DNA of 23,016 nt from a virus (IMGVR_UViG_2531839468_000018:1-23016), one strand, 5' to 3'. Shown: positions 10,188-17,048, counted from the first letter of the stretch. Notes: generated by a model from the letters alone, not told the origin. A program made the numbers and translations.

Positions 10188-10404
10188 CCCTTCCCTTATG
10201 GCTAGATTGCGAGAGGTGCTTAACGCGATTTTCAGCGCCCCCCGATCTGGAAAATCCAGAATCCCCAAATATCAGCAAGGAATTTTCTTGCGTAATCAAC
10301 ATCGTTTTTACCTATTAAATCATTACACAGAAAGCCTTTCTGTAATGTCTCTCACTAAACTGTGAACCGCCCCGGGTTTCCTGGAGAGTGTTTTATCTGT
10401 GAAC

Positions 10405-11292
10405 TCAGGCTGCCAGATCATCGTTTCCGATGGAAGCATAATAAGCTTTTTCTGCTTCTGCCGGGGGAGTATGGCCCAGCCTTTCCAGCAATCGTCGATT
10501 GTTATACCAGTCCACCCACGTGAGTGTGGCCAGTTCCACTTCTGCACGGTTTTTCCAGCTCTTACGGTGTATTACCTCCGCTTTGTAAAGACCATTGATG
10601 CTCTCCGCCATCGCGTTGTCATACGAGTCGCCAGTACTCCCTGTTGATGCCAGTAATCCGGCTTCCTTAAGCCGCTGCGTGTAGGCCAGCGATACATACT
10701 GAGAACCTTTATCACTGTGATGGATTGTGCCGGACGGCCGACGGGCCCACAACGCCTGCTCCAGTGCATCCAGCACGAATGTTGTTTCCATGGATGATGA
10801 GACCTGCCATCCCACGATGTATCCGGCGAACACATCAATGATGAACGCCACATAAACGAAGCCCTGCCATGTGCTTACCCAGGTAAAATCAGCCACCCAC
10901 AACTGGTCTGGACGTTCTGCCACGAACTGACGGTTTACGCGGTCGCATGCGGCAACGGCTTTCCGGCTGACGGTAGTGCGGACCTTTTTACCCCGGAGAA
11001 CACCGGCAAGTCCCATAACCGCCATGAGACGTGCCACAGTGCATCTGGCCACTCTGATACCTTCCCGTAACAACTGACGCCAGACTTTACGCACACCGTA
11101 TACCTTGTGATTTTCATCGTATACGCGCTGTATCTCTTTCTTCAGCCAGTCATCGCGCTGCGCACGGGCACTGCGTTTATCCGGATGATGTCGCTGTTGC
11201 TGACAGTGGTAATACGTTGACGGGGCAATATGCAGTTCGCTGCATAGCGGTCCGACCCCGTACTGCTCACGCAGCTTATCCAGCAGCGGCAT
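10405..11292 (-). CDS. IS629-like transposase OrfB
   Basis: [40 protein letters not shown]... with DDE integrase core (..WVADFTWVSTWQGFVYVAFIIDVFAGYIVGW..HSDKGSQYVS..YDNAMAESINGLYKAE..). Confidence 0.85.
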   Translation of the reverse strand: MPLLDKLREQYGVGPLCSELHIAPSTYYHCQQQRHHPDKRSARAQRDDWLKKEIQRVYDENHKVYGVRKVWRQLLREGIRVARCTVARLMAVMGLAGVLRGKKVRTTVSRKAVAACDRVNRQFVAERPDQLWVADFTWVSTWQGFVYVAFIIDVFAGYIVGWQVSSSMETTFVLDALEQALWARRPSGTIHHSDKGSQYVSLAYTQRLKEAGLLASTGSTGDSYDNAMAESINGLYKAEVIHRKSWKNRAEVELATLTWVDWYNNRRLLERLGHTPPAEAEKAYYASIGNDDLAA

Positions 11293-11618
11293 TATTTTTT
11301 CCAGAGGCGGTCGAACTCCGCCTTCGCAAAATAAGCGGAAGCCTGGCGAAGGATATCGTTACTGCGGCGCAGTTCACGATTTTCACGCTCCAGCTCTTTC
11401 AGACGCTGACGTTCAGCGGTGGTGAGCCCTCCATCACCGCCCCCGGTATCCCGCTCATGCTGGCGAACCCAGACACGCAGAGTCTCCGGCGTACAGCCAA
11501 TCTTTGGAGCAATGGAACAAATTGTCGCCCATTGTGAGTCATATTCGCCCTGACTTTCCAGAACCATACGGGCTGCCCGTTGACGGACTTCAGGGGAAAA
11601 ACGAGTATTTTTAGTCAT
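11292..11618 (-). CDS. IS629-like transposase OrfA (HTH / leucine zipper)
   Basis: [61 protein letters not shown]...; ATGA overlap with orfB. Confidence 0.85.
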
Positions 11619-11975
11619 CCTGTTTACCTCTTTCTCAGGGAGTTTAGTCTCCAGGATTCCCGGGGCGGTTCACTTTCACTAAACACGAGAATGATCGGTT
11701 TTATGTCGGATCAGATGCTAGAAACAGCACCACGTCTCACAAGGGCTGTAAGCGATGAAACCAGTGTTTATGCGGGTGCAGGTCAAAATATAGGCCAAAA
11801 TCCATTTAACATAATAATCGTAATATGCACTAAGGAACACATAGAACGCCTTGAATTGATGTATCAGGGGAAAAGTGATGGATTTTTTACGTAGGAGCAC
11901 GAGAGGGCTTCTGTTGACTTTTGTGTGCTATGAAATATAATTAAAGGTTTTTGTTTTTATCGTGTGATGTAGTGG

Positions 11976-12414
11976 ATTACACAGGGGGATAGATTAAATG
12001 GTGTTCTGTTTATACAGGTTTATTTGTTAGATCAACAATTTGGCATTTCTAAACAGATGTTTGAACGTTGCCAAATGTATTGACAACACAAGAAAAGGGC
12101 TTGCTATGCCACGCATTACACGGAATAAGGCTGTAAAAACAAAATAAATTTTAAAATTTGCACAAACGAGAAAACTCGTTCAGAAACAAGCAGAACAATT
12201 TTTAGCCAACAATTTCTGATGGTGCTCTGTAAGCCGCATTACACAAGGCTTTGCGAAAGTGATGTAAAAGTGAAGAAAGTAAGAATTGCACTTTAAGCTA
12301 CTTTTCATTGGATTTTTTAGTATGGAATTACACAGGAATAAGTTAGGGATATTCTATGATTTACACAGGGAATATAGGGGGATTATGGCACACACATAGA
12401 AAGGCATTACACAG
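11976..12414. repeat. Dispersed direct copies of a 9-11-bp motif ATTACAC(A/G)G(G); further copies at 10321, 12996 and inverted copies 12952-13075
   Basis: Copies at 11976, 12115, 12238, 12317, 12359 (ATTTACACAGG) and 12406; three share the extension ACAC(A/G)GGAATA(A/T)(A/G). Confidence 0.6.
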
Positions 12415-12498
12415 AGTGAGTGCTATGTGACAAATGGATGTAACGAGAGGTTACATTCAGCTATCTGAAATGCTCTCTGTAAGAAAGTTGGTAGTAAC

Positions 12499-12607
12499 GG
12501 TAGGTCATAGTGAGCTATGGGGTAGGTCACTGTGAACTAGGGGGGTAGTTCACTATGAGCTAGGGGGTAGGTCATAGTGAGCTAGGGGGTAGGTCACTGT
12601 GAACTAC
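12499..12607. repeat. Five head-to-tail 22-23-bp repeats (GGTAGGTCAYWGTGARCTAGGG), each with an internal dyad; iteron/operator/centromere-like
   Basis: Units at 12499-12520, 12521-12543, 12544-12565, 12566-12587, 12588-12607; immediately followed by a ~70-bp tract that is almost pure A/T (12610-12680). Confidence 0.8.
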
Positions 12608-13694
12608 AATAAGACTATTAATAAAACTATATTAGATTATTAATTAGATCATAATAATAATATTCTTTATATCTATATATATGATCTTTTGCCTTCCGGC
12701 GTTAGCTTCACTCTCTGGCAAGCAGCCTTACTCCGCTACCTTTCGGGCTTCGTGGCTGGCCCGTTCCGCTCACACCGAAAGCAAAGCGTTACTTTCTTCG
12801 TGTAACTATCGTTGGCGGTAACGCCCACGAAGAAATACTATTGCGCTGTGCGCAGAAGAGTAATCACCTAACCAATCATACTGATTGCTTACGTGTTAAC
12901 TCTATCTCTCTACTCTTAATTACCCTCCTACATTTAATAACTCTGTTATTCTCTGTAGTTGTGTAATTACTCGAAGAGAGAGCGGCTAAAGCTCAATTAC
13001 ACTCTGCTTTCCTCGTGTAATTTCACTAAGCCTCAATACAATTCCACTTTCTACATTCTGTAGTCGTGTAATTGTTTTCGGTGGAAAAGCCAGAGGCGAC
13101 ACCGAAAGAGAATTCTGATCTTATTAATCTTATCTATCTTAGTTATCTTACTTACTTTATCCACTTTATTATTAATAATAGCTTTATAAGCTCTGTGTAG
13201 CTCTCTGACGCAAGAAACAGCATTCAGGAAGGGAATCACCTTAGAAAAGTGTTCTTTGCGTCATAATGTGTTTTATGAAGGATTCAGAGGTGTTTCATAA
13301 CAGGAGTGTATAGAGGATACTTTAGGTAATTAAAAATAAGGGGTCTAAATGCTTCTCTAACAGCATTAAGCAGGGTAGGGAATGGAAACGCATTGCCTAC
13401 ATATATAATCTCACTACAGGGCTTTACAGAGCGTTTTATAAAGTGACTCTCTATCTTATATCTACCATTACCTTTTCATATACCTAACAAATACAAAATA
13501 AGCCCCTTAAATAAGCCTCTGGCGAGCTAAACAACCTCTACATAAGAGAATGTATTGCTTTTATCAAAACTTCGTTAGAACGTGTTTTAGAGCGTTTTAG
13601 ACAATAATGAAGAATAGCACTACACAGGAGAGCACGAATTGCTAAGAAAAAATGTAAGTGCATGAAAAAGATCAGATTTTTTATGAAAAGGGTA

Positions 13695-13723
13695 TTGACA
13701 AATGTTTCTTTATATGTAATAAT
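13695..13723 (+). promoter_or_regulatory. Sigma-70-like promoter (TTGACA, 17 bp, TGn-AATAAT) upstream of the early gene train
   Basis: Perfect -35 TTGACA at 13695-13700; extended -10-like TGTAATAAT ending 13723; first gene starts at 13834. Confidence 0.4.
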
Positions 13724-13833
13724 AGGTATTAGAGGGACAGAAAAACATTCTTCTCTAAATAATCAAAATCAATGCACTTTGAAGCCGTCAGGCTTGCAAG
13801 GTGTTTTTCTTTTAACTGAATAAGGAGTTTTTT

Positions 13834-14022
13834 ATGAAATGGTTTACCCCGGAGCACGTCATCTCGGCATTTAAAAAAGGTGAGCTAACACGCCACCAAA
13901 TAGTAATGAATCGTAATATGGCAAGGAGTCGAGGTTATCCAGAGCGAGCAGCTTGCTTCAATGAAGCACTCAAGATTATTGATGAATTAAGAAAAAATGA
14001 AAAAGAATCTGAAACAGAGTAA
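13834..14022 (+). CDS. Small hypothetical protein (62 aa)
   Basis: ATG 6 nt after consensus AAGGAG; first ORF of a co-directional train. Confidence 0.55.
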   Translation: MKWFTPEHVISAFKKGELTRHQIVMNRNMARSRGYPERAACFNEALKIIDELRKNEKESETE

Positions 14023-14041
14023 AGAATAGAAGGAGAAAACT

Positions 14042-14209
14042 ATGAGCGAAACCAAGAAACCAATTCCGCGCACTTACCTACACGTTGACCCTGAAATCTT
14101 CAAGGTTTTATTTGCTGAAGCCAAGAAAAGGCAAATTATGGTCAGTGATTTGATGTTAGAAATCATTACTGAAGCAGCAGAGAACATCAAACAAAAAAAG
14201 GGTAAGTGA
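14042..14209 (+). CDS. Small DNA-binding protein, probable ribbon-helix-helix (Arc/CopG-like) regulator (55 aa)
   Basis: ATG 14042, 6 nt after AAGGAG; MSETKKPIPRTYLHVDPEIFKVLFAEAKKRQIMVSDLMLEIITEAAEN: basic N-terminal strand then two short helices; below the ORF-track cut-off. Confidence 0.5.
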   Translation: MSETKKPIPRTYLHVDPEIFKVLFAEAKKRQIMVSDLMLEIITEAAENIKQKKGK

Positions 14210-14260
14210 TCCTCATTCACTTTAGTAGCGCATTAAGCGTGATTTATAAGGAGATTTTTA

Positions 14261-14950
14261 ATGATTAATCAACTAACTTTTACAAAACACTATGACACGT
14301 TTGATAATGTATCAAAGATTTATTCTGATAAATTCCCTCAAGGAAAAGATTTAGAACTATTACATATTGTGCTTTATTTTCGATTCCTTAGTTATCAGGA
14401 AAACAACCTTAATTGTTATGAAAGTCACGAAACATTAGCTAAGATTTTTAAGTCTTCAGCGTCAACAATTAAACGTAAGATAAACGATCTTAAAGAGATG
14501 GGATTATTAGAAACATCCCCACATCCTGATCCGTATATTTCATCTTTGATTTACAATGCTCTCCCTCTCACAGATGCACATATTACTCCCCCAGGAGAAT
14601 CATCACTCTCTGATCTTTCTGAGGCAGAAGAAGCACAGGAACAACCTAAAGGCCATAAACAGCCTTCTTTTGATGTTCTTGATGATTGGGATGCGCCTTT
14701 GCCGTGGGAGACGGAAGAAACACCTGTTTCATCAAGTGAAAAGGTAGCTAATGATAATGAGGAGGATGTGTTAGAGAATTTTGCCTCTCTTATCTGCCAG
14801 CAGAAACACACCAGAACAGGAGGGGCATCATTTATAGAATTTGCAAATTCACTAGCTTATAGACACGGGCTAAAACGACCAAATGGTATTGAGGCATATT
14901 TTTCTAAGAATTACCCAAATGTGTATGATGACTTTGATATTCCATTTTAA
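14261..14950 (+). CDS. Winged-helix DNA-binding protein, replication-initiator/replisome-organiser-like; acidic C-terminal half ending in an SSB-tail-like DDFDIPF
   Basis: ATG after TAAGGAG; N-terminal ..CYESHETLAKIFKSSASTIKRKINDLKEMGLLE.. is a wHTH signature common in phage O-like initiators; last residues YDDFDIPF* resemble E. coli SSB C-terminus DFDDDIPF. Confidence 0.6.
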   Translation: MINQLTFTKHYDTFDNVSKIYSDKFPQGKDLELLHIVLYFRFLSYQENNLNCYESHETLAKIFKSSASTIKRKINDLKEMGLLETSPHPDPYISSLIYNALPLTDAHITPPGESSLSDLSEAEEAQEQPKGHKQPSFDVLDDWDAPLPWETEETPVSSSEKVANDNEEDVLENFASLICQQKHTRTGGASFIEFANSLAYRHGLKRPNGIEAYFSKNYPNVYDDFDIPF

Positions 14951-14961
14951 TAAGGAGGGTT

Positions 14962-15240
14962 ATGATTCAATATTTAGTAAAAAATCAAGTAGACAGAATT
15001 CAGTGTAATGACACAGGAAAACGCATCTACGAAACACTTGCTTACCTCTATAAAGGAAAGCCAACACCGCTAAAATATAGCGATGTGTTACACCGAGCAG
15101 GGTGCTCTGAAGATGGTTTAAAATTCTGGCTGAAACAGCTATCAAATTTCGGTGTTATAGAGATTAAAGAATTATCTTTCTCTACATTCAATCTCAAAAG
15201 ACTGGATAAAGAAATAGTATTCATCTATTCCACTCTCTAA
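14962..15240 (+). CDS. Hypothetical protein (92 aa), possible small wHTH
   Basis: ATG after AAGGAGGG; ..KYSDVLHRAGCSEDGLKFWLKQLSNFGVIEI.. Confidence 0.5.
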   Translation: MIQYLVKNQVDRIQCNDTGKRIYETLAYLYKGKPTPLKYSDVLHRAGCSEDGLKFWLKQLSNFGVIEIKELSFSTFNLKRLDKEIVFIYSTL

Positions 15241-15372
15241 AATCTCTCTATGTAATTAAAATATAAAAGGAAAACATTATTATGATAGTAGCTATGTATT
15301 GGTTATTGTTCTTTCTCACGTTAGAAACATATTTCGGGGTGTTTTCCTTTAAAAGAAAAGGAAAAGTAAATA

Positions 15373-15780
15373 ATGGCAAAAAGAAAAAACAACGTTGTTA
15401 AGAAAATCGGTGATTCAGCTTCTCTTCTAAGTAAACCTAAATCTATTCTAAGACGTAAAGACTTTAAAGAGCTAGTTACGCTCTCCAAGCAAAATAGCGC
15501 CCCTGGCGAATGGAAAACAGAGATCATAGAACATTCTCCCTCTGTGCCTTGTGGAGATGAATTTAACGCCTTACAAGAAATCTTATCTTCAACACCTGGC
15601 GTATTCTGGAAACCTAGAAAAAGAAAAGAGTATATTGTTGATAGCTCTGATTTACGCAAATACCAGATTTTAGGATTTGAAGACTATAACCACTACGTTG
15701 GTTATCTCGCCACCAATGGCCTAAATAATTTAGTTCCTGAATTCCATTTAGATAATGATGATCACTATGGAGACTTTTAA
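15373..15780 (+). CDS. Hypothetical protein (135 aa), basic N-terminus
   Basis: ORF with ATG start in the co-directional train; MAKRKNNVVKKIGDSASLLSKPKSILRRK... Confidence 0.5.
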   Translation: MAKRKNNVVKKIGDSASLLSKPKSILRRKDFKELVTLSKQNSAPGEWKTEIIEHSPSVPCGDEFNALQEILSSTPGVFWKPRKRKEYIVDSSDLRKYQILGFEDYNHYVGYLATNGLNNLVPEFHLDNDDHYGDF

Positions 15781-15781
15781 T

Positions 15782-16117
15782 ATGAACAAAAACACGTATG
15801 ACACAATTTATTCACTAATTAATTATTATGAGGATGATTACCTCCTGCCTTTAAACCGTGCTGAACTTGAAGCACACAAAAACTCCACGCCAGCGGCACT
15901 AAATGAGGCGTTTAAACACTGGGATTTAGCTGTGAATGCCTTTGAGATGCTCTGTAAGCGTGTAGAGATGCTCTGTAAGCGTGAAAACGCATACCTGACA
16001 GCCGATCAGATATGGGAGCTATCAAACTGGATAGAAGATATTGAATCTGATGTTCGCTATGTGGGAGATGGCCTTATCGAACTCGCTCAACGCTTAGCCG
16101 TTATCACAGAAGAATAA
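15782..16117 (+). CDS. Hypothetical protein (~111 aa) containing an in-frame 21-bp tandem duplication
   Basis: ORF track 15755-16117; preferred start ATG 15782, 8 nt after GGAGA; duplicated EMLCKRV/EMLCKRE from GAGATGCTCTGTAAGCGTG x2 at 15944-15983. Confidence 0.5.
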   Translation: MNKNTYDTIYSLINYYEDDYLLPLNRAELEAHKNSTPAALNEAFKHWDLAVNAFEMLCKRVEMLCKRENAYLTADQIWELSNWIEDIESDVRYVGDGLIELAQRLAVITEE

Positions 16118-16144
16118 AAAAGCAACAAAAAGTTGTAAAATATC

Positions 16145-16173
16145 TTGACATTTCATCTATTGTATGTTAATAT
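16145..16173 (+). promoter_or_regulatory. Strong sigma-70-like promoter (TTGACA, 17 bp, TGn-TAATAT) heading a ~200-nt leader
   Basis: Perfect -35 at 16145-16150, extended -10 TGTTAATAT at 16165-16173; same architecture as the 13695 promoter. Confidence 0.5.
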
Positions 16174-16306
16174 AATTATATAGGGTGATTATTTTTCCTT
16201 TATTGGTTCGATATTAAAAATTCTTCTTGTCGTTAAAGGGGAGTAAAATCTCCGCTCCCCGCTTCTCCTCCTCCTTAAGTGTCATTATTACCTCTTTTTT
16301 CCTTTG

Positions 16307-16334
16307 TTATGCATACATCTTGGAGTATGCATAA
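16307..16334. promoter_or_regulatory. Perfect 9-bp inverted repeat TTATGCATA-N10-TATGCATAA (operator-like)
   Basis: Arms 16307-16315 and 16326-16334, in the leader between promoter and terminator. Confidence 0.4.
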
Positions 16335-16365
16335 CATAGGGTAATTACATAGGTACAAGTTAATA

Positions 16366-16399
16366 AAAGGCGGCTCTAAATGCTGCCTTTTATTTTGCC
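16366..16399 (+). terminator. Intrinsic terminator inside the leader (tR'-like)
   Basis: Stem AAAGGCGGC / GCUGCCUUU (one G-U pair), 7-nt loop, then TTTTATTTT. Confidence 0.6.
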
Positions 16400-16404
16400 C
16401 GTTA

Positions 16405-16422
16405 TACAACTTAAAAGTTGTA
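16405..16422. promoter_or_regulatory. Perfect palindrome TACAACTT-AA-AAGTTGTA (operator-like) just upstream of the late genes
   Basis: 8-bp arms with 2-bp spacer, 37 bp before ATG 16459. Confidence 0.4.
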
Positions 16423-16458
16423 TTTCTTACTTTAAACAAGGTAACAAGGTTTATATAA

Positions 16459-16671
16459 ATGTTGTTCTTAAATGATAAAGAGCAAATCATCAAGTATCGC
16501 GATGAAATGCTAAAGATCAATCCACAAATTACCGAAATGGTAGCTAAATACGCTGGGTGTTCTGTCGAGGAAGTAGAAAGATGTGTTGAAAAATATTTTT
16601 CTCCTTCTTCTCCGTCTACACCTTCCCTTAATGAATTAATCAAATTAAAAGCTAAGGAGATTACTAAATGA
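16459..16671 (+). CDS. Hypothetical protein (70 aa)
   Basis: First ORF after the leader terminator; stop overlaps the next start (ATGA). Confidence 0.5.
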   Translation: MLFLNDKEQIIKYRDEMLKINPQITEMVAKYAGCSVEEVERCVEKYFSPSSPSTPSLNELIKLKAKEITK

Positions 16672-17030
16672 TTATTGATTTAGACACTCTGTTTCCAGTT
16701 CGAAAGACTTTCACAGATATTGTAAGTTATTGTACTGATCCGTTTGCCTCTGTAGAAAACAAGGTTTTTGCTTCTCTTCCTGCTGATGTTGAATGCGGAG
16801 ACTTGATCACCAGCACGGGCGCTAAATATGTATCAGGAGATGATATCTATGTTGTTATGAGTGAATTTTTAACGGCTGGAGCAAACAAGCCTGTAGATGT
16901 TTTACGTAGCAATGCTGGGCTTGTATGCATTAAAGCTGATGCGCTGAATGCTGTAAGTGAAGCAGCAAAAACAGCATTAATTAAAAAAGGCTTCCAGCTT
17001 GAAGGGTTCCATTCTGTTTTCACTTCTTAA
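16668..17030 (+). CDS. Hypothetical protein (120 aa)
   Basis: ATG after TAAGGAG; translationally coupled to the preceding ORF. Confidence 0.55.
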   Translation: MIIDLDTLFPVRKTFTDIVSYCTDPFASVENKVFASLPADVECGDLITSTGAKYVSGDDIYVVMSEFLTAGANKPVDVLRSNAGLVCIKADALNAVSEAAKTALIKKGFQLEGFHSVFTS

Positions 17031-17048
17031 TAAAAGGAATAATAATAA

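What the first reader, a model, noticed from the sequence alone, without database searches (positions are those of the whole stretch)
14261..14950. Winged-helix initiator-like protein ending in an SSB C-terminal tail mimic (DDFDIPF)
Seen: the 229-aa protein ends ...NYPNVYDDFDIPF*. Established: E. coli SSB ends ...DFDDDIPF, and that acidic tip is the docking peptide for many SSB-interacting proteins (for example the pol III chi subunit, PriA, RecQ, ExoI). Inference: an element protein with a DNA-binding wHTH head and an SSB-tail-like end could recruit or compete for host SSB-interactome proteins, either to load the host replisome at the element origin or to titrate host repair/replication factors. 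I am not aware of this combination being a described feature of a known initiator family.
Basis: partly seen in the sequence, partly recalled or inferred. Interest (0 to 1): 0.7.

Follow-up and report, generated by a model that had tools for sequence, protein, structure and literature searches.

The report
Origin-binding initiator with SSB-like tail
A small mobile element in E. coli encodes a DNA-binding protein that most likely starts the element's own replication. The protein ends in the same short peptide that the host's single-strand-binding protein uses to dock replication and repair enzymes, so it probably borrows that docking signal to bring host machinery to its origin.

Summary
ORF 14261-14950 (+) encodes 229 aa ending ...NYPNVYDDFDIPF*.

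The protein has three parts:
- an N-terminal winged-helix domain;
- a disordered acidic linker of about 50 aa;
- a small four-helix C-terminal domain, followed by the tip.

It most likely binds an origin. Five 22-bp dyad iterons (12499-12606) abut the most AT-rich tract of the element (12607-12683). Across related loci I saw at least nine iteron types, and each pairs with its own N-terminal module. The two are separate cassettes, 1.4-1.6 kb apart, in a backbone that is otherwise 93-97% identical.

The tip is under selection. In 18 divergent C-terminal clusters the last residue is F in 16, the one before it is P in 13, and the one before that is I or L in 15. Codons vary synonymously. The last three positions carry far more information than those upstream.

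The exact heptapeptide [DE]DFDIPF also ends genuine phage SSBs and two phage primase-helicases. No helicase or primase was recognised in the element.

The initiator role and a functional tip are well supported. Docking onto host SSB partners such as PriA, PriC, DnaG or chi is inferred and untested. I found no paper describing an initiator with this tip. I class it as a new variant of a known kind.

The parts
14261..14950 (+). Gene for the 229-aa initiator-like protein, stop codon included
   Evidence: SD AAGGAG lies 8 nt upstream (repeat D17). Present in 594 of 5426 complete E. coli genomes.
14312..14599 (+). N-terminal winged-helix DNA-binding module, about aa 18-113, type A
   Evidence: Pfam HTH_36. 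PHROG replication-initiation and O-like families. AlphaFold pLDDT about 90. Foldseek top hits are RepA initiator NTD 4pql/4pt7/5kbj, E about 0.01.
14555..14599 (+). Hinge motif YNALPLTDAHITPPG (aa 99-113), the most conserved stretch of the family and a junction where modules are exchanged
   Evidence: D105, H107 and P111 are invariant in A1. N and C modules are recombined on either side of it. Its function is unexplained.
14600..14758 (+). Disordered acidic and Pro-rich linker (aa 114-166), containing FDVLDDWDAPLPW
   Evidence: pLDDT below 50 for aa 115-165. Homologues carry an internal DD[ILV]P[FC]xWDxPxY motif here.
14759..14926 (+). Small four-helix C-terminal domain (aa 167-222)
   Evidence: pLDDT about 90 in the full model; mean pLDDT 82 in the model of the domain alone. 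No fold match in the PDB. Divergent but alignable across C-module types.
14927..14947 (+). SSB-type C-terminal tip DDFDIPF
   Evidence: The same heptapeptide ends genuine phage SSBs and two primase-helicases.
12499..12606 (.). Five 22-bp iterons (GGTAGGTCAcTgTGAgCTAGGG), each a dyad of about 17 bp; the proposed binding sites of the protein
   Evidence: Iteron type co-varies with the N-terminal module in every locus examined.
12607..12683 (.). AT-rich tract (87% AT, two GATC sites), the proposed DNA-unwinding element
   Evidence: It overlaps the most AT-rich 70-nt window of the element, 12616-12685 (0.90).
12435..12455 (.). Orphan iteron of another specificity (type B, TGGATGTAACGAGAGGTTACA)
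   Evidence: Identical to the reference copy of the L022 type-B array.
13695..13723 (+). Promoter-like site (TTGACA-17-AATAAT with TG) ahead of the operon that holds the gene
   Evidence: A consensus match only.
13834..14209 (+). Two small genes (62 aa and 55 aa) upstream in the same apparent operon
   Evidence: Syntenic in related loci. No family match.
9056..9080 (+). attL: 25-nt copy of the 3' end of tRNA-Thr (thrW)
22460..22479 (+). attR: 19 of 20 nt repeat of the thrW 3' end
21041..22405 (-). Tyrosine integrase of the element
   Evidence: Pfam Phage_integrase.

Best explanation
The protein is the replication initiator of a roughly 12-kb element integrated at thrW.

Proposed steps:
1. Its N-terminal winged-helix module, probably as dimers, binds the five dyad-symmetric 22-bp iterons at 12499-12606.
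2. This promotes opening of the adjacent AT-rich tract.
3. The C-terminal part hangs on an acidic disordered linker of about 50 aa and ends in ...DDFDIPF-COOH. The tip copies the docking peptide of host SSB.
4. The origin-bound initiator therefore presents several SSB-type tips at the origin. These tether one or more host SSB-interacting proteins. The most useful for an element with no recognised helicase, loader or primase gene would be PriA or PriC (which lead to DnaB loading), DnaG, or the chi-psi arm of the clamp loader.

Shown: the gene, the domain layout, the conservation of the tip, and the iteron/AT-rich site with its co-variation with the N-terminal module.
Inferred: replication activity, and any contact between the tip and host proteins.
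For: 1. Initiator identity.
- PHROG replication-initiation families (phrog_270, 5.8e-9), O-like and DnaD-like loader families match.
- Pfam HTH_36 matches.
- The best PDB fold matches are the iteron-binding RepA NTD and its DNA complex.

2. Origin.
- Five phased 22-bp dyad iterons sit directly beside an 87% AT tract that overlaps the most AT-rich 70-nt window of the element.

3. Specific recognition.
- At least nine N-terminal module types each sit with their own iteron sequence at the same position.
- Against L017 and L034 the backbone is 93-97% identical except for two separate cassettes, the iteron array and the N-terminal module, which lie 1.4-1.6 kb apart.

4. The tip is under selection.
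- F in 16, P in 13 and I/L in 15 of 18 divergent clusters, with information peaking at the last three residues.
- Codons vary synonymously or conservatively (ATT/ATA/CTA/CTT, CCA/CCC, TTT/TTC) in four different downstream contexts.

5. The tip is of SSB type.
- It contains DIPF, the part of SSB-Ct that is resolved in partner complexes, and IPF is required for function (PMC10143822).
- Ten Pfam-SSB-like phage proteins in IMG/VR end in exactly [DE]DFDIPF.

6. Precedent for the tip on replication proteins that are not SSBs.
- Two primase-DnaB-like helicases end in DDFDIPF, and an SF2 helicase ends in FDDDIPF.

7. Need for host factors.
- No helicase, loader or primase was recognised in the E. coli element, nor in the minimal resolvase + iterons + initiator elements of Serratia and Erwinia.
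Against: - No binding or replication data exist, and docking could not be run with these tools.
- The tip follows a helix directly instead of sitting at the end of a long flexible tail as in SSB. Only the domain as a whole is tethered.
- Acidic content upstream of IPF varies. One type ends QIEQSTIPF.
- Two apparently full-length family representatives lack the tip, and two others end IKF and IAF.
- The iterons lie 1.65 kb from the gene, which is unusual for Rep/ori pairs.
- No DnaA box lies in the origin core.
- In six loci outside E. coli the IPF codons lie in a shared 26-nt block together with the next gene's ribosome-binding site. Part of the conservation could therefore be at the nucleotide level.
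- Matches to initiator families are modest, and NCBI annotates the protein only as a transcriptional regulator.
Confidence: 0.5

Rival explanations
1. The protein is the initiator, but the [IL]PF tip docks onto something other than the host SSB interactome. Candidates are a helper-phage protein such as a helicase loader, an element protein such as the neighbouring 92-aa winged-helix-like protein, or the protein's own DNA-binding domain as an auto-inhibitory latch.
For: - C-module type and the downstream 92-aa and 135-aa genes change together.
- The tip abuts a folded helix.
- The acidic content is variable.
- From general knowledge, not tested here: SSB's own tip is known to fold back on its OB domain.
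Against: - The co-change of the C-module and the downstream genes is explained by simple linkage, because they form one contiguous block.
- Identity of the heptapeptide to real SSB tips would be an unexplained coincidence.
- The minimal elements in Serratia and Erwinia lack the 92-aa gene but keep the tip.
Confidence: 0.2
2. The protein is a master repressor or sensor of a phage satellite and not an initiator. The repeats would be operators. The SSB-like tip would be bait for helper-phage proteins that normally grip the SSB tail, such as recombinases of the Red-beta, Sak or Erf type, so that infection pulls the repressor off the DNA.
For: - The element looks like a satellite: it has capsid, Dit-like and tape-measure-like genes plus an integrase, but I recognised no terminase or portal.
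- SaPI2 Stl2 is de-repressed by phage recombinases whose C-terminal domain works with the SSB acidic tail (PMC11846896).
- Repressor/operator pairs also co-vary.
- NCBI names the protein 'transcriptional regulator'.
Against: - The array overlaps neither strong promoter-like site (11914-11941 and 13695-23); it lies 560 bp and 1.1 kb from them.
- Five phased sites flanked by the most AT-rich tract of the element is origin architecture.
- The family matches are to initiators, not repressors.
- The gene sits inside a co-directional operon and is not divergently transcribed.
- The same cassette occurs in capsid-less minimal elements.
Confidence: 0.12
3. The tip is a beta-sliding-clamp-binding motif, in the manner of the Hda hexapeptide QLSLPL or of RK2 TrfA's clamp-binding motif (recalled), and not an SSB mimic.
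For: - DFDIPF has the x-hydrophobic-x-hydrophobic-P-hydrophobic pattern of the hexapeptide clamp motif.
- Clamp motifs are often C-terminal, and at least one plasmid initiator uses one. Both points are general knowledge and were not tested here.
Against: - Gln, the hallmark first residue, is nearly absent: Q occurs once in 18 at the relevant position.
- The hydrophobic residue at -4 is present in only 6 of 18.
- Pro at -1 is strongly conserved although it is a free position in clamp motifs.
- The tail equals real SSB tips.
Confidence: 0.07
4. The tip has no function of its own. It is carried along in a short conserved junction (IPF codons, stop, ribosome-binding site, ATG) that serves translation of the next gene or recombination between modules.
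For: The 26-nt block TACCATTTTAACCAGGAGGATTATG is shared by six loci that have different C-modules and different downstream genes. The hinge is a second conserved junction.
Against: - E. coli types keep [IL]PF with different codons and three other downstream junction sequences.
- Observed changes are synonymous or I/L and D/E.
- The ribosome-binding site lies after the stop codon.
- The motif matches a known functional peptide exactly.
Confidence: 0.05

Closest known systems
Bacteriophage lambda O protein and ori-lambda
   Same: Both have an N-terminal winged-helix domain that binds an array of dyad-symmetric iterons next to an AT-rich tract, then a flexible acidic or Pro-rich linker, then a C-terminal part that brings in the helicase-loading machinery. 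PHROG 'replication initiation O-like' families match. Specificity cassettes are exchanged among relatives, as they are among lambdoid phages.
   Different: - No Pfam Phage_rep_O match.
- The origin lies 1.65 kb upstream of the gene, not inside it.
- No P-like loader gene was recognised.
- The C-terminus carries an SSB-type tip. I do not recall lambda O having one, but I did not check.
RepA_N initiators of staphylococcal plasmids (pSK41/pTZ2162 RepA; PDB 4pql, 4pt7, 5kbj)
   Same: They are the best structural matches for the N-terminal domain. From general knowledge: a winged-helix NTD that binds iterons as dimers, plus a separate host-specific C-terminal domain that contacts host primosome proteins.
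   Different: - The fold match is weak (E about 0.01, 16% identity).
- There is no Pfam RepA_N match.
- The C-terminal domain has no detectable structural relative.
- Host recruitment is proposed to work through a short linear motif, not a folded DnaD-like domain.
C-terminal tip of bacterial SSB (SSB-Ct, ...DFDDDIPF)
   Same: The protein ends in D-I-P-F-COOH with acidic and aromatic residues just upstream. The IPF core is what partner proteins grip (PMC10143822). The exact heptapeptide [DE]DFDIPF ends genuine phage SSBs.
   Different: - The carrier is a double-strand DNA-binding winged helix, not an OB fold. There is no Pfam SSB match and no OB fold in the model.
- The acidic run is shorter.
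- The tip follows a folded helix.
Acidic, Phe-terminated C-terminal tails of T7 gp4 helicase-primase and gp2.5
   Same: This is a precedent for a replication protein that is not an SSB carrying the same kind of tail as the SSB, so that both dock on one partner (general knowledge; the tails are mentioned in PMC12339929). Here I found phage primase-helicases and an SF2 helicase ending in host-type SSB tips.
   Different: - The T7 tails act within the phage's own replisome and do not have the bacterial IPF signature.
- Here the tail copies the host signal and sits on an origin-binding initiator.
Rep-ori modules of phage-inducible chromosomal islands
   Same: Both are integrated, satellite-like elements with an integrase, an initiator and cognate iterons that differ between alleles.
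   Different: As far as I recall, PICI Rep proteins carry a helicase domain. This protein has none, and the element also carries a lambda gpE-type capsid gene and a Dit-like tail gene.

Membership tests
SSB-Ct-type docking peptide (functional motif class) | Phe as the very last residue, so that its free alpha-carboxylate is available | tested here: met
   The protein ends ...IPF*. F is terminal in 16 of 18 divergent clusters.
SSB-Ct-type docking peptide (functional motif class) | Pro at -1 and Ile/Leu at -2 (the IPF/LPF core) | tested here: met
   P in 13 of 18 and I/L in 15 of 18. IPF is stated to be required for SSB-Ct function (PMC10143822).
SSB-Ct-type docking peptide (functional motif class) | Acidic residues, and often an aromatic one, just upstream of the core | tested here: met
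   The window protein ends DDFDIPF, with net charge -4 over the last 10 residues. This is variable in the family, from 0 to -5.
SSB-Ct-type docking peptide (functional motif class) | Presented on an intrinsically disordered tether | tested here: inconclusive
   A 50-aa disordered linker precedes the C-terminal domain, but the tip itself follows helix 219-224 directly.
SSB-Ct-type docking peptide (functional motif class) | Binds the SSB-Ct pockets of chi, PriA, ExoI, RecQ, DnaG and similar proteins | not testable with these tools
SSB protein family (Pfam PF00436, OB fold) | OB-fold domain that binds single-stranded DNA | tested here: not met
   No SSB hit in Pfam at E up to 0.1. The model shows a winged helix plus helices and no OB fold.
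Iteron-binding replication initiators (lambda O-like, plasmid Rep-like, functional class) | Winged-helix DNA-binding domain of the initiator type | tested here: met
   HTH_36 at 24.9 bits against a cut-off of 25. Nine PHROG replication-initiation, O-like or loader families match. RepA NTD gives the top fold hits.
Iteron-binding replication initiators (lambda O-like, plasmid Rep-like, functional class) | Array of phased direct repeats next to an AT-rich unwinding element in the same element | tested here: met
   Five 22-bp repeats at 12499-12606 and an 87% AT tract at 12607-12683.
Iteron-binding replication initiators (lambda O-like, plasmid Rep-like, functional class) | Initiator and iterons form a matched specificity pair | tested here: met
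   At least nine module types each have their own repeats. The two cassettes are non-contiguous in a conserved backbone.
Iteron-binding replication initiators (lambda O-like, plasmid Rep-like, functional class) | Supports origin-dependent replication | not testable with these tools
   This needs an experiment.
Pfam Phage_rep_O (PF04492) / RepA_N (PF06970) | Significant match to the family profile | tested here: not met
   Neither family appears among Pfam hits at E up to 0.1. No NCBIfam family matches.
Beta-clamp-binding motif (QL[SD]LF / QLxLxL) | Gln at the first position and hydrophobic residues at the fixed positions | tested here: not met
   Q occurs once in 18 at -5. A hydrophobic residue at -4 occurs in 6 of 18. 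The conserved Pro falls on a free position of the motif.

The most novel reading that the evidence does not exclude
A family of mobile-element initiators assembles a replisome at a DnaA-box-free origin by displaying several copies of the host SSB docking peptide on double-stranded DNA. This would trick the replication-restart primosome (PriA or PriC, then DnaB-DnaC) or primase into treating the opened origin as an SSB-coated fork. More broadly, the SSB tip would be a portable recruitment tag that phages and satellites graft onto initiators, helicases and even a TIR-domain protein.
Probability: 0.3. Interest if true: 0.75.

Novelty: new variant of a known kind. Interest (0 to 1): 0.6.

Why it matters
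How small elements with no recognised helicase, loader or primase gene get a host replisome onto their origin is known for only a few model plasmids and phages.

An initiator that carries the host SSB docking peptide would be a simple route that uses a short peptide motif, and it is directly testable with tail mutants, peptide competition and host pocket mutants.

It would extend the SSB interaction hub from single-stranded DNA to a site-specific protein bound to double-stranded DNA.

It would also give a defined, swappable origin/initiator cassette with at least nine specificities. The element is present in about 11% of complete E. coli genomes.

Tried and rejected
- tblastn of the whole protein against the phage and plasmid collections found no match, and the C-terminal 43 aa against the phage collection also found none. 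The family is confined to chromosomal islands and IMG/VR prophage-like contigs.
- NCBIfam gave no family.
- Rfam on 9-23 kb found only the IS3 frameshift pseudoknot, so it does not explain the ORF-poor 2 kb.
- DnaA-box and IHF scans of the origin region found only one 8/9 DnaA box, 470 bp from the AT tract.
- The acidic Phe-terminated tail of the neighbouring 135-aa protein (...DDHYGDF) is not conserved in its homologues, so I dropped it.
- K-12 CP4-6 shares only the intF site, not this cargo.
No complex with host proteins could be modelled.
- Literature searches for an SSB tip on an initiator found nothing.
- I considered and rejected an OB-fold SSB, a clamp-binding motif, and a C-terminal degron. 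The degron was rejected from recalled ClpX C-motifs and was not tested.

Full report
**1. The observation**

The ORF at 14261-14950 (+) translates to 229 aa ending ...SKNYPNVYDDFDIPF*. A strong Shine-Dalgarno sequence lies 8 nt upstream. It is the only one of 86 ORFs of at least 40 aa in the window that ends in PF.

**2. The setting**

The window is E. coli chromosome. The gene sits in an element bounded by direct repeats of the 3' end of tRNA-Thr (thrW). attL is at 9056-9080 and attR at 22460-22479. That gives 13.4 kb, which includes a 1.3-kb IS3-family insertion at 10362-11671.

Gene order in the element:
- a 52-aa ORF;
- about 2 kb with few ORFs;
- genes of 62, 55, 229 (the finding), 92, 135, 120, 70 and 120 aa;
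- a lambda gpE-type major capsid protein;
- genes of 67 aa and 609 aa, the latter a tape-measure-like PHROG;
- a Dit-like tail protein;
- a tyrosine integrase on the other strand.

I recognised no terminase, portal, helicase, loader or primase. The query region 13500-16200, which holds the gene, occurs in 594 of 5426 complete E. coli genomes. The protein has no tblastn match in the phage or plasmid collections. K-12 CP4-6 uses the same integration site but carries different cargo.

**3. Anatomy of the protein**

AlphaFold with a 17-sequence alignment gives these parts:
- a confident winged helix-turn-helix at about aa 18-113 (pLDDT about 90);
- a disordered acidic and Pro-rich linker at aa 115-165 (pLDDT below 50);
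- a confident four-helix domain at aa 167-224;
- the tip.

Evidence on the N-terminal domain:
- Pfam gives HTH_36 at aa 33-83, E 1.7e-5, just under the cut-off.
- PHROGs gives nine replication families, led by 'replication initiation protein' phrog_270 at 5.8e-9, plus O-like and DnaD-like loader families.
- Foldseek against the PDB ranks the staphylococcal plasmid RepA initiator N-terminal domain and its iteron complex first (4pql, 4pt7, 5kbj), ahead of MarR/ArsR regulators. The scores are weak, with E about 0.01.

The C-terminal domain has no structural relative. No curated NCBIfam family exists.

**4. The family is modular**

A search of 1.84 billion representative proteins finds only 38 relatives. 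Genome and viral scans place them in Escherichia, Enterobacter, Serratia, Buttiauxella, Citrobacter and Erwinia.

Sequences show several unrelated-looking N-terminal modules and several C-terminal module types. Most are joined at a nearly invariant hinge, ALP[LF]TDAH[IV]xPP (D105, H107 and P111 invariant). The modules are shuffled among E. coli elements: A+C1 in the window, and A+C2, B+C2, C+C2, C+C1 and F+C1 elsewhere.

**5. An origin and its pairing with the protein**

At 12499-12606 there are five 22-bp repeats, GGTAGGTCAcTgTGAgCTAGGG. Each contains a dyad of about 17 bp, and they are spaced at two helical turns. They are followed at once by a 77-nt tract of 87% AT with two GATC sites. This tract overlaps the most AT-rich 70-nt window of the whole element.

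Related loci carry a different repeat array at the same place, and the repeat type follows the N-terminal module:

| N-terminal module | Repeat sequence | Loci |
|---|---|---|
| A | TAGGTCACTGTGAGCTA | 11 of 11 |
| C | CCTAGGAAATGAGTTCC | 5 of 5 |
| D | TCAGGCACTATACCGGA | 3 of 3 |
| B | TGTAACGAnnGGTTACA | all type-B loci checked |
| F | ACCCCCACAGAATTCTGTTA | both type-F loci |
| other modules | further distinct repeats | L006, L009, L010, L023 |

The window differs from L017 and L034 only in two separate cassettes: the repeat array and the N-terminal module. The 1.4-1.6 kb between them, and the rest of the backbone, are 93-97% identical. A concerted swap of two non-contiguous cassettes is strong evidence for specific recognition.

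Phased dyad repeats next to an AT-rich tract is the layout of ori-lambda and of iteron plasmids. No DnaA box lies in the core. The array overlaps neither strong promoter-like site, which argues against an operator role.

**6. The tip is under selection**

Near-identical E. coli variants change only D to E and I to L.

In 18 representatives of divergent C-terminal clusters:

| Position from the end | Residue | Count | Information |
|---|---|---|---|
| 0 | F | 16 of 18 | 3.7 bits |
| -1 | P | 13 of 18 | 3.05 bits |
| -2 | I or L | 15 of 18 | 2.8 bits |
| -3 to -9 | varied | - | at most 1.9 bits |

Two apparent exceptions are truncated fragments. Two full-length representatives lack the tip, and two others end IKF and IAF.

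At the DNA level the three codons vary synonymously or conservatively (ATT/ATA/CTA/CTT, CCA/CCC, TTT/TTC) across four different downstream junctions.

One caveat. In six loci outside E. coli the IPF codons, the stop codon, the ribosome-binding site and the ATG of the next gene form a shared 26-nt block between different flanks. Part of the conservation may therefore reflect a recombination or translation junction. The codon variation in the E. coli types argues that this is not the whole story.

As a control, the acidic Phe-terminated end of the neighbouring 135-aa protein is not conserved in its homologues.

**7. The tip is of SSB type**

SSB-Ct is DFDD+DIPF. IPF is required, and only DIPF or IPF is seen in complexes with ExoI and RecO (PMC10143822). 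The window protein ends DDF-DIPF.

A scan of IMG/VR for [DE]DFDIPF followed by a stop gave 25 hits:
- 11 members of this family;
- 10 SSB-like proteins (two checked against Pfam SSB, PF00436) that end in exactly this heptapeptide;
- 2 primase-DnaB-like helicase fusions (BT4734-like_N + PriCT + DnaB_C, 626 and 805 aa);
- 2 small unknown proteins.

A capped scan for FDDDIPF followed by a stop gave 120 hits:
- 50 canonical SSBs;
- many alternative phage SSB families;
- an SF2 helicase (two hits);
- a CAP12/Pycsar-type TIR-domain protein;
- a few unknown proteins.

The peptide is therefore a real SSB tip variant. It also recurs on phage replication proteins that are not SSBs.

A clamp-binding motif fits poorly. 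Gln is almost absent, and the conserved Pro falls on a free position of that motif.

**8. Mechanism proposed**

- Supported by sequence evidence, though no binding was measured: the N-terminal module reads a matched iteron array next to an unwinding element.
- Shown: the protein carries a conserved SSB-type tip, and the C-terminal part is tethered by a flexible acidic linker.
- Inferred: several initiator molecules on the array display a cluster of SSB tips at the opening origin. These tether host SSB-interacting proteins.

The element has no recognised helicase, loader or primase. The same holds for the minimal resolvase + iterons + initiator + DUF6998 elements of Serratia and Erwinia. The useful partners would therefore be PriA or PriC (leading to DnaB loading), DnaG, or chi-psi. 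Recruitment suits a site-specific DNA-binding protein better than titration does.

**9. Rivals**

- The tip binds a helper-phage protein, an element protein, or the protein itself.
- The protein is a satellite repressor whose tip is bait for helper recombinases that grip SSB tails (compare SaPI2 Stl2, PMC11846896).
- The tip is a clamp-binding motif.
- The tip is junction hitch-hiking.

Each is scored in the rival section. None explains the whole body of evidence as well, but only experiments can settle the partner.

**10. Comparison with known systems, and novelty**

In function it resembles lambda O/ori-lambda and RepA_N initiators: a DNA-binding head, a linker, and a host-recruiting C-terminus. 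It does not meet the Pfam profile of either family, so I do not file it as a member.

The tail meets the sequence-level criteria of an SSB-Ct peptide. Partner binding is untested.

T7 gp4 and gp2.5 give a precedent for shared tails, as general knowledge. A 2026 preprint notes an FDDDIPF tip on a phage SSB-like protein (10.64898/2026.04.29.721553).

I found no description of an initiator with this tip. I class it as a new variant of a known kind, with interest 0.6.

Noticed in passing
window 11672-13830: About 2.1 kb between the IS insertion and the operon has no convincing ORF, yet it is 93-97% conserved between elements with different iteron types. It holds five copies of ATTACACAGG (11976-12416), a near-consensus promoter-like site at 11914-11941 (TTGACT-16-TATAAT) pointing towards the iterons, and paired repeats TCTGTAGTTGTGTAATT (12952 and 13057). 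The function is unknown; candidates are a second factor's binding sites, a packaging site or an RNA. Rfam found nothing.
   Followed up: partly
window 14555-14599 (aa 99-113): The hinge YNALPLTDAHITPPG is the most conserved stretch of the family, more so than the tip, across otherwise unrelated N-terminal modules. It coincides with a module exchange point. Module type F lacks it. Its role is unexplained.
   Followed up: partly
window 14660-14700 (aa about 134-147), and the homologues aligned in A1: Many family members have an internal SSB-tip-like motif in the disordered linker ([FL]DD[ILV]P[FC]xWDxPxY, for example LDDIPFA and FDDLPFVW). The window version is FDVLDDWDAPLPW. This may be a second docking motif or a relic of an older C-terminus.
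   Followed up: no
L050 (906-929, - strand) and L051 (12338-12361, + strand): Two unrelated phage primase-DnaB-like helicase fusion proteins (626 and 805 aa; BT4734-like_N, PriCT, DnaB_C) end in DDFDIPF, a host-type SSB tip on a replicative helicase.
   Followed up: partly
L068 (5725-5748, + strand); L113 and L141: A 291-aa protein with a CAP12/Pycsar-effector TIR domain on a viral contig ends in FDSFDDDIPF. A 577-aa SF2 helicase (ResIII + Helicase_C) ends in DDDFDDDIPF. SSB tips therefore occur on several kinds of protein that are not SSBs.
   Followed up: partly
window 9081-22479: The element encodes a gpE-type capsid protein, a Dit-like tail protein, a tape-measure-like 609-aa protein and an integrase. 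I recognised no terminase, portal or protease. That is the profile of a possible phage satellite of an undescribed type. It is present in about 11% of complete E. coli genomes.
   Followed up: partly
L005 6564-11209 and L009 7355-13537: In Serratia and Erwinia the iteron + initiator cassette sits in a much smaller element with a serine resolvase, a DUF6998 protein and a short hydrophobic peptide gene, and without capsid genes. The replicon cassette therefore moves between element types.
   Followed up: partly
window 12435-12455; L014 2016-2113: An orphan iteron of another specificity (type B) sits just left of the type-A array in the window. One locus (L014) carries full type-C and type-A arrays side by side with a type-A protein. 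These look like traces of cassette replacement.
   Followed up: partly
window 15944-15983: A perfect 21-bp tandem duplication lies inside the 120-aa ORF and gives the repeated peptide EMLCKRV/EMLCKRE. It is also present in L012.
   Followed up: no
window 9035-9080: The left end of the element abuts only a partial copy of thrW (no tRNA was called in the window), with IS66- and IS2/IS3-type sequences and other cargo to the left. Several islands are therefore stacked at this tRNA site in the source strain.
   Followed up: partly
L004 10757-10805: The Buttiauxella homologue ends ...SRFEISF*, but a second in-frame ...RIPF* lies 9 nt beyond its stop codon (TAA GAA TAA CGA ATA CCA TTT TAA). This suggests a recent disruption of the usual tip.
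   Followed up: no
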